Below are positions 26,567 to 28,403 of a stretch of 64,000 nucleotides of DNA, piece by piece. The notes under the pieces are model-generated. The model made no database searches. It had not been told where the DNA came from and saw only the letters and a list, made by a program, of their open reading frames with translations. Position 1 is the stretch's first letter. Every line of letters begins with the position of its first letter. The DNA comes from Eledone cirrhosa (taxonomy: Eukaryota), in contig CAXHJY010000708.1 in the NCBI GenBank assembly GCA_964016885.1, positions 1-64,000 on the forward strand, read 5' to 3'. Position numbers and translations under genes: made by a program.

Positions 26567-26643
26567 ATATATATATATGTGTGTGTGTATATATATATAT
26601 GTGTGTGTGTATATATATATATGTGTGTATATATATATTTATA

Positions 26644-26683
<40 letters not shown>

Positions 26684-26687
<4 letters not shown>

Positions 26688-26878
26688 TTATGTAATAAAC
26701 AACATAAGGCAATTATTCCATTTACCAGTGGTTTCTTAAAAGCAAAAGGTTTTGCTTTCAATCCTCAGAATGAAAAAACCAGGATTTTTCATTCTGAGGA
26801 TTGAAAGCAAAACCTTTTGCTTTTAAGAAACCACTGGTAAATGGAATAATTGCCTTATGTTGTTTATTACATAATAAT
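26684..26878. mobile_element. Fold-back element: 94 bp arms, 7 nt loop, hammerhead in each arm
   Basis: 26684-26777 is the reverse complement of 26785-26878. A tail runs to ~26950. TA/TG arrays on both sides. Confidence 0.9.
26787..26846 (+). ncRNA. Type I hammerhead ribozyme (mirror copy 26716-26775, minus)
   Basis: Stem I tttcatt/aatggaa, core CUGAGGA, long stem II ttgaaagcaaaa/ttttgcttttaa, GAA, stem III ACCA-c-TGGT, GUA triplet. Confidence 0.85.
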
Positions 26879-26950
26879 AATAATTAAGCTCTGTTGCCTA
26901 CATAGAGCACTCTTTTTTCCTGGACTTTTTCGATGGAATTACTTCATTCA

Positions 26951-28403
<1,453 letters not shown>

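What the first reader, a model, noticed from the sequence alone, without database searches (positions are those of the whole stretch)
26684..26878. Minimal 195 bp hairpin that is almost entirely two back-to-back hammerheads
The arms are perfect 94 bp inverted repeats, and the fold centre lies only a few nt 5' of stem I. The ribozyme has an intact CUGAGGA/GAAA core, a GUA site and well-paired stems. Stem III (ACCA-c-TGGT) has a 1 nt loop, the type established to work as a dimer. The full hairpin and the ribozyme fold are mutually exclusive, suggesting a conformational on/off switch (inference).
Basis: partly seen in the sequence, partly recalled or inferred. Interest (0 to 1): 0.75.

Follow-up and report, generated by a model that had tools for sequence, protein, structure and literature searches.

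The report
Mirror-image stub of Penelope retroelement
This DNA hairpin is one of hundreds of short mirror-image stubs left by an abundant Penelope-type jumping gene, not an RNA switch, and its family's junctions suggest the element likely copies one capped RNA onto both sides of the DNA cut.

Summary
The 94-bp arms, 7-nt loop and type I hammerhead motif (CUGAGGA/GAAA/GUA 26837-39) are real. The unit is larger than reported: a one-sided ~70-bp tail (26879-26948) follows, and it sits in (TA)n. It is a 5'-truncated, head-to-head insertion of a Hydra-type Penelope-like element (PLE): 3,631 exact hits to a 34-mer, a full-length parent with an intact 710-aa RT/GIY-YIG ORF, and fold centres that differ between copies. 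This architecture is published. The switch idea fails: the two motifs are on opposite strands, and the hairpin beats the ribozyme fold by a computed 82 kcal/mol. The interest lies in the family. Tails are one-sided in 97 of 100 hairpins, either arm can be the longer (37 vs 42), and copies stop at one G 40 nt upstream of the ribozyme with an extra G (49 G vs 5 A), as a reverse-transcribed cap would give. That favours two cDNAs from one capped, uncut sense RNA over self-priming. The scan noted such stubs, twin priming and RNA-start stops before in other genomes (69 notes, at least 19 genomes). Cleavage is untested.

The parts
26640..26683 (.). (TA)n target, left flank
   Evidence: Sequence; no-tail arms abut (TA)n in 91 of 93 hairpins scored
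26684..26777 (-). Inverted, tail-less arm: 5'-truncated pLTR copy ending in the TAA repeat
26716..26775 (-). Mirror copy of the hammerhead motif (core 26762-26768, GUA 26723-26725)
26778..26784 (+). 7-nt loop, native pLTR sequence in the orientation of the right arm; junction has 3 nt of microhomology
26785..26878 (+). Direct arm: pLTR 3' part; starts 26-34 nt short of the family's inferred RNA start
   Evidence: 98.8% identity of arm plus tail to the pLTR of full-length parent L149
26787..26846 (+). Type I hammerhead motif: stem I 26787-93/26840-46, CUGAGGA 26794-800, stem II 26801-26, GAAA 26827-30, palindromic helix III 26830-38, predicted cut after 26839
   Evidence: compensatory stem II changes in a sister family
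26879..26948 (+). One-sided PLE tail (~70 bp); in the parent it is the sequence between the pLTR and the ORF leader
   Evidence: on exactly one side in 97 of 100 hairpins
26949..27000 (.). (CA)/(TA)n target, right flank; no target-site duplication can be read in the microsatellite
   Evidence: tail ends abut TA/CA repeats in 89 of 90 hairpins scored

Best explanation
The hairpin is a short head-to-head insertion stub of a Hydra-type Penelope-like retroelement in a (TA)n tract, likely made when the element's enzyme copied one capped, uncut RNA onto both strands of the cut DNA, and its hammerhead would be locked shut in any transcript through both arms. Shown: family membership, autonomous parent, variable centres, one-sided tail, (TA)n target, a fixed stop with an extra G. 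Inferred steps: the GIY-YIG nuclease cuts both strands; each 3' end primes reverse transcription inside the RNA, one at the tail end (~200 nt from the RNA start) and one at the TAA repeat (~125 nt); both cDNAs run towards the 5' end; they join head to head through 0-5 nt of microhomology or a few added bases, and each serves as template for the other's second strand. This copy stopped 26-34 nt before the RNA start. The hammerhead is a passenger from the pLTR, where it probably works as a dimer or with protein help. Confidence is about 0.95 for 'PLE stub, no switch' and about 0.6 for the two-cDNA, one-RNA route.
For: Family: 1821 + 1810 exact hits of a 34-mer, control 0. Parent L149: pLTR, intact 710-aa ORF, pLTR, preceded by an inverted copy, with RWK, DKT, YRDD, CxCX5C, YVG, CxxC, CxH as listed for Hydra PLEs (PMC8557442 section 11). 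Centres vary: 93 hairpins centred 0-15 nt upstream of stem I with many different junctions. Coupled arm lengths: 14 of 24 pairs from the first 100 hits have a spacer of 15 nt or less, including arms of 2431/2443 nt with a 9-nt spacer. Tail one-sided in 97 of 100. Longer native arm is the tail arm in 37, the tail-less arm in 42, tie 10 (89 one-tailed among 92 clean junctions, p=0.65); snap-back of the tailed cDNA predicts always the tail arm. Fixed stop: purine before the landmark G 54 times, 49 G and 5 A, against 436 native pyrimidines; 30 of 30 fetched are junctions, 26 G and 4 A, with the extra G in 14 tail arms and 12 tail-less arms, also directly against (TA)n (L194, L202) and where the tailed partner is much shorter (L199, L219). 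An extra G marks the cap in full-length L1 insertions (PMC11702581, passage). Centres drop from 59+85 just inside the landmark to 6 beyond it. Microhomology mean 2.17 nt (n=65) vs 1.33 in simulated joins. Arms match each other more than arms of other loci (mean 1.0 vs 2.3 differences, n=90; same subfamily in 90 of 91 classifiable). In vitro an Anolis PLE extends both strands from two internal RNA sites that bound the tail and uses uncut RNA (PMC11167929).
Against: No RNA data, so RNA start, cap and cleavage are read from DNA junctions only. The extra G could be a non-templated C added at a fixed cDNA end for another reason; several centres carry extra TA or AG as well. The 100 hairpins were mostly found with a gap limit of 30 nt, which caps their asymmetry; 10 of the 24 unselected pairs had spacers of 64 nt to 6.7 kb and were not resolved. 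Recombination between arms could flip a loop, and gene conversion could equalise arms. 37 of 90 loci have private changes on one arm only and 5 on both (not inspected one by one), which does not tell one RNA from two. The subfamily-B pile-up coincides with a native TTTTAAAA palindrome, so part of it may be a microhomology hot spot. The microhomology null is crude.
Confidence: 0.8

Rival explanations
1. Same PLE stub, but made by snap-back or self-priming of one strand: one cDNA (or an antisense RNA, as proposed in PMC3846280) folds back on microhomology and copies itself.
For: Tiny loops, excess microhomology and near-identical arms; this copy fits, its loop being native to the tail arm; symmetric centres at the landmark with the extra base on both arms (L101, L203-L207).
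Against: It predicts one fixed relation between loop and tail; observed 37 vs 42 (12 vs 21 where asymmetry is 5 nt or more). Tail-less arms reach the landmark with the extra G while the tailed arm is far shorter (L199, L219, L161). An antisense template gives no reason for a cap-like G at the sense start.
Confidence: 0.25
2. Two separate RNAs, one per strand, are copied by a dimeric enzyme and joined head to head.
For: Explains either loop orientation and very unequal arms (L029, L199, L219); the Anolis PLE protein is predicted to be a dimer (PMC11167929).
Against: Does not explain 2.4-kb arms ending within 12 nt of each other inside the ORF (L031); 1 of 91 hairpins mixes subfamilies, though co-expression of one source copy could hide mixing.
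Confidence: 0.15
3. The palindrome is a non-autonomous unit that spreads whole (MITE-like or foldback-like).
For: The same centre recurs at L066 and L067, and one subfamily-B centre recurs many times.
Against: Centres form a continuum; L066, L067 and this copy differ in tail sequence and flanks; the ends are asymmetric (tail on one side); a read-through RNA would be a 94-bp duplex.
Confidence: 0.05
4. One reading: a conformational on/off ribozyme switch.
For: The two folds are indeed mutually exclusive, and the motif is intact. An RNA starting within about 20 nt of the centre would keep the fold within 5-6 kcal/mol.
Against: 82 kcal/mol gap, no co-transcriptional window; variable centres; no sign of locus-specific conservation; a start at the usual distance (position 26750) still costs 22.5 kcal/mol.
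Confidence: 0.03
5. Assembly fold-back artefact on a small contig.
For: The window lies at the start of contig C735; no Logan contig spans the whole stretch.
Against: Both ends match the family's natural ends, with a one-sided tail; the same structure, with arms diverged to different degrees, occurs on the chromosomes; a contig of run X1 crosses a near-identical centre (record 3).
Confidence: 0.02

Closest known systems
EN+ Penelope-like insertions with an inverted 5'-truncated pLTR and a one-sided tail (PMC8557442 passages; PMC3846280 passages)
   Same: Head-to-head inverted copy, palindrome at the junction, tail on one end, partial tandems, microsatellite target.
   Different: Tail is ~70 bp rather than 30-40 bp; this copy holds no ORF; PMC3846280 explains the palindromes by self-priming on an antisense template, which the junction counts here do not favour.
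Hydra clade of PLEs (PMC8557442 section 11)
   Same: Parent ORF has RWK, DKT, CxCX5C, CxxC and CxH, C-terminal nuclease, canonical hammerhead, (TA)n target.
   Different: Unit is 4.1-4.3 kb (published: generally under 3 kb) owing to a microsatellite-rich 3' region with a decayed second pLTR; thousands of copies; no tree built.
Metazoan PLE type I hammerheads with short palindromic helix III (PMC4209133, parts 1-2 of 4)
   Same: Core, long helix II, palindromic helix III predicted to need a dimer; opposite-strand pairs 100-700 bp apart already reported in Schistosoma; low activity in vitro, none as monomer for the one tested.
   Different: Stem II closes with U-A, not the conserved G10.1-C11.1; stem I is 7 bp.
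Poseidon element of Anolis in vitro (PMC11167929, parts 1-2 of 4)
   Same: Two internal start sites bounding the tail, both strands extended, uncut RNA as template, protein-assisted hammerhead.
   Different: Other clade; the parts read do not address how inverted copies form or a capped 5' end.
L1 twin priming and cap-derived extra G (PMC11702581 passages)
   Same: Second cDNA primed on the other DNA end; extra G at full-length 5' junctions.
   Different: L1 twin priming inverts a non-overlapping 5' part; here both cDNAs cover the same stretch, giving a palindrome.
Non-LTR retrozymes (bioRxiv 10.64898/2026.07.22.740005, part 1 of 5)
   Same: Type I hammerhead of PLE pLTR origin, non-coding.
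   Different: Retrozymes are head-to-tail tandems that can form dimeric ribozymes in one RNA; this is head-to-head.

Membership tests
Type I hammerhead ribozyme | CUGANGA, GAAA and NUH core in type I order | tested here: met
   0 of 20,000 shuffles
Type I hammerhead ribozyme | Helices I, II, III can form | tested here: met
   7, 11 and 3 pairs; sister family has 3 two-sided and 1 one-sided pair-keeping changes in stem II, with the first pair opened (15 of 20 loci showed a core)
Type I hammerhead ribozyme | G10.1-C11.1 pair closing stem II (highly conserved in PLE minimal hammerheads per PMC4209133) | tested here: not met
   U-A here; may lower activity (recalled, no call)
Type I hammerhead ribozyme | Match to an Rfam hammerhead model | tested here: not met
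Type I hammerhead ribozyme | Dimeric fold through palindromic helix III | tested here: met
   Co-fold minimum is the dimeric hammerhead; computed only
Type I hammerhead ribozyme | Self-cleavage after GUA | not testable with these tools
   No RNA run listed; only 20 hairpins are centred near the site
EN+ PLE insertion | Sequence derives from the pLTR of an element with a single RT + C-terminal GIY-YIG ORF | tested here: met
   L149, L148, L151; RT and nuclease assigned by motifs; 1342 homologues, one with a Pfam GIY-YIG hit; the ORF itself has no significant Pfam or PDB hit
EN+ PLE insertion | Inverted 5'-truncated copy and one-sided tail | tested here: met
   97 of 100
EN+ PLE insertion | Target-site duplication | tested here: inconclusive
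   Both flanks are microsatellite
Hydra clade | RWK, DKT, CxCX5C, CxxC, CxH; no CX2-5CxxC | tested here: met
   Positions 37, 114, 555, 658, 689
Hydra clade | (TA)n target and canonical hammerhead | tested here: met
Hydra clade | Generally under 3 kb | tested here: not met
   pLTR spacing 4143 and 4289 bp; described as a tendency, not a criterion
Hydra clade | Placement in the clade by phylogeny; absence of the CCHH motif | not tested
   No reference sequences fetched; the paper's supplements were not read
Neptune clade (first guess) | CX2-5CxxC linker and DKG | tested here: not met
Non-LTR retrozyme | Head-to-tail tandem of hammerhead units | tested here: not met
MITE / foldback DNA transposon | Fixed size, symmetric ends | tested here: not met

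The most novel reading that the evidence does not exclude
The hairpins are a genomic record of how Penelope-like elements integrate: both target strands prime on one capped, sense, hammerhead-uncut RNA at two internal sites, and the two cDNAs complete each other, which replaces second-strand synthesis. The cap-like extra G on either arm maps the element's transcription start from DNA alone and argues against the published antisense self-priming proposal.
Probability: 0.55. Interest if true: 0.55.

Novelty: new member of a known kind. Interest (0 to 1): 0.3.

Why it matters
The locus itself is an ordinary dead stub. The family matters a little more. How PLEs make their inverted repeats is listed as open (PMC8557442, discussion passage), and this young family, with an intact parent ORF and hundreds of clean junctions, gives sharp predictions: a capped start 40 nt upstream of the hammerhead, two priming sites, independent cDNA ends, and uncut RNA as template. 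Hundreds of perfect 90-140 bp hairpins would also be double-stranded RNA substrates (editing, small RNAs) if transcribed; that is untested.

Tried and rejected
Rfam: no hammerhead match, only hairpin-driven miRNA matches far below cut-off. DNA search of the own genome found nothing, not even the locus itself, because common words are skipped; patterns were used instead. No RNA holder listed; this says nothing on expression. Laying four contig sets showed the family in three organisms' runs, with the same one-sided ends, but no piece spans the locus; one of two lay calls was left unused. Pfam and PDB give no significant hit for the parent ORF. Neptune, my first guess, was dropped after the motif check. 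A pile-up of centres at the predicted cleavage site, a lead from earlier notes, was not seen: 20 hairpins in that window vs 93, 97 and 144 in neighbouring windows (+45); anchors differ in how many subfamilies they catch (one search includes sister families and the native stem II hairpin), so these counts are rough; none of 14 tail-to-ORF junctions examined starts at the cut site. Variation at core position 7 within the family was not used as evidence, since the descriptor demands the core. Paper searches listed no paper proposing same-RNA dual priming or a cap-G for PLE palindromes; the library lacks most subscription papers (e.g. Arkhipova 2006) and no supplements were read, so this is weak.

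Full report
1. Observation. The arms are perfect over 94 bp (26684-26777 and 26785-26878) around the loop ACCAGGA; the RNA folds at -148.2 kcal/mol, z -29.7. The + strand carries a type I hammerhead motif: stem I 26787-93/26840-46, CUGAGGA 26794-800, stem II 26801-26, GAAA 26827-30, helix III 26830-38, GUA 26837-39. None of 20,000 dinucleotide shuffles of the arm met the same descriptor. Rfam does not report it. The two motifs fill 120 of 195 nt and lie on opposite strands.

2. What it belongs to. A 34-mer across the 3' half of the motif has 1821 + 1810 exact matches in the 3.0-Gb genome, control 0. Many come as minus/plus pairs from 48 bp to 7.7 kb apart. Long pairs hold pieces of an RT/nuclease ORF. 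Following the sequence right of the hairpin led to full-length copies: L149 has a pLTR 98.8% identical to window 26778-26948, a leader, an intact 710-aa ORF, a second pLTR 4143 bp on, and an inverted truncated copy in front. The ORF has RWK, DKT, YRDD, CxCX5C, YVG, CxxC and CxH and lacks CX2-5CxxC, the marks given for the Hydra clade of Penelope-like elements (PMC8557442 section 11, read whole). No tree was built. The ~70 bp after the right arm (26879-26948) is the sequence that joins the pLTR to the ORF leader in the parent, i.e. the PLE tail. Inverted truncated copies with a one-sided tail are described for PLEs (PMC8557442 and PMC3846280, passages), and opposite-strand hammerhead pairs 100-700 bp apart were reported in Schistosoma (PMC4209133, parts 1-2 of 4). 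So the structure is known in kind.

3. The ribozyme. Alone, the 66-nt motif is within 2.4 kcal/mol of the ensemble, and with its arm and tail within 5. The minimum-energy co-fold of two copies is the dimeric hammerhead, -32.8 against 2 x -12.4 kcal/mol. A sister family of at least 496 hits keeps the core and changes stem II at three pairs on both sides and one on one side, which suggests selection on the fold in active elements. Stem II closes with U-A rather than G-C. Cleavage could not be tested; no RNA run is listed. PMC4209133 found no monomer cleavage and low dimer cleavage for a PLE motif, and PMC11167929 (parts 1-2 of 4) found protein-assisted cleavage that was not needed for insertion.

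4. The switch. With both arms in one RNA the hammerhead fold is 82 kcal/mol above the ensemble; in growing transcripts the sense arm pairs as it appears, and by symmetry this holds on both strands. The cost falls to 22.5 kcal/mol for a start at 26750 and to 5-6 only from 26765 on. One RNA cannot hold two sense motifs here, so no intramolecular dimer is possible. A gap of that size is a lock, not a switch.

5. How the hairpins form. I collected 100 distinct short hairpins, after removing near-identical loci by script and, by eye, L023, L115, L116 and one of the two L003 hairpins as duplications. Most were found with a gap limit of 30 nt and are the first listed by the tool, so they are not a full or unbiased set. 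The tail is on one side in 97, both in 1, none in 2. Snap-back of the tailed cDNA predicts that the tail arm always holds the loop. It is the longer arm in 39, the shorter in 46, tied in 12; among 92 junctions with at most 5 unexplained bases, 37, 42 and 10. Microhomology averages 2.17 nt in the 65 junctions without added bases against 1.33 in simulated joins. Arms of one locus differ by 1.0 on average against 2.3 between loci (n=90), and 90 of 91 classifiable hairpins have both arms of one subfamily. In the unselected 24 pairs, 14 have a spacer of 15 nt or less (13 of 23 without the duplicate), one with arms of 2431 and 2443 nt; 10 have larger spacers that my aligner did not resolve.

6. A fixed RNA end. 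Centres number 20 near the cleavage site, 97 in stem II (including sister families), 93 at 0-15 nt upstream of the CATT of stem I, 59 + 85 at 29-44 nt and 6 at about 58-73 nt. In one subfamily, arms stop at a G 40 nt upstream. Genome-wide that G is preceded by its native pyrimidine 436 times and by a purine 54 times, 49 G and 5 A. All 30 fetched cases are junctions, 26 G and 4 A; the extra G occurs in 14 tailed and 12 tail-less arms, directly against (TA)n in L194 and L202, and in tail-less arms whose tailed partner is much shorter (L199, L219). An extra G is the mark of the cap in full-length L1 insertions (PMC11702581, passage). I infer a capped, sense RNA starting there and not cut by its hammerhead, with each arm reverse-transcribed on its own. 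This fits the two internal start sites and two-strand extension seen in vitro (PMC11167929) and sits badly with self-priming on an antisense template (PMC3846280). Against it: no RNA evidence, extra TA or AG at some centres, a native palindrome under the subfamily-B peak, and possible loop flipping or gene conversion. The window's copy stops 26 and 34 nt short of this start with 3 nt of microhomology; the same centre recurs at L066 and L067 with other tails and flanks, so as independent events.

7. Earlier notes. My two-cDNA reading was noted, before one search showed 69 notes in at least 19 genomes on the same kind of stub. They agree on dual priming, gave the lead to look for stops at the RNA start and at the cut site, and pointed to PMC3846280. 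The first lead held here; the second did not for this family. They are unchecked AI notes and are not counted as support. The few lines shown did not mention a cap-like G.

8. Verdict. Real feature, ordinary kind: a new member of the known inverted PLE stubs. The switch is not supported. Interest 0.3, resting on the family's junction record rather than on this locus. Supplements of the cited papers were not read and may already list this family.

Noticed in passing
window:42778-45322 and window:39878-41958: Two larger head-to-head elements of other families with CUGAUGA hammerhead motifs at both ends (cores at 42866 minus / 45234 plus; 41869 region), each with a short extension on one side.
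   Followed up: partly
window:2256-2632: 377-bp palindrome with a CUGAAGA hammerhead motif and a TATATA-type palindromic helix III; a similar motif occurs in L033.
   Followed up: partly
window:29026-29191 and window:25256-25603: Further fold-back palindromes in (TA)n, the first with a one-sided extension; no hammerhead by my strict descriptor.
   Followed up: no
window:140-1914 and window:63036-63997: Pieces of related PLE ORFs on the minus strand, about 40% identical to the L149 protein; the first lies between 196-bp inverted repeats.
   Followed up: partly
window:35017-36525: 503-codon open frame with a weak zf-RVT match, likely a non-LTR retrotransposon piece.
   Followed up: no
window:56126-56592: 155-bp perfect terminal inverted repeats around a 157-bp spacer, MITE-like.
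   Followed up: no
L152:726-1540: Five head-to-tail 183-bp units made of the TAA repeat, tail and ORF leader of this family, without the hammerhead.
   Followed up: no
L149:5536-5622: The autonomous element carries a decayed second pLTR copy inside its 3' region, about 1.3 kb before the terminal one.
   Followed up: partly
L149:2575-2605: Pyrimidine tract ending in CAG about 75 nt upstream of the hammerhead, like a 3' splice site; PLE pLTR introns are known (PMC4209133).
   Followed up: no
L084:773-1050 and L041:1123-1300: Partial tandems in which the ORF start jumps straight into a pLTR 14-36 nt upstream of stem I, consistent with template jumps near the RNA start.
   Followed up: partly
runs X5 and X6 laid on window:26684-26950: Two other organisms hold related copies; one reads a CUGACGA core with the sister family's stem II.
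   Followed up: partly
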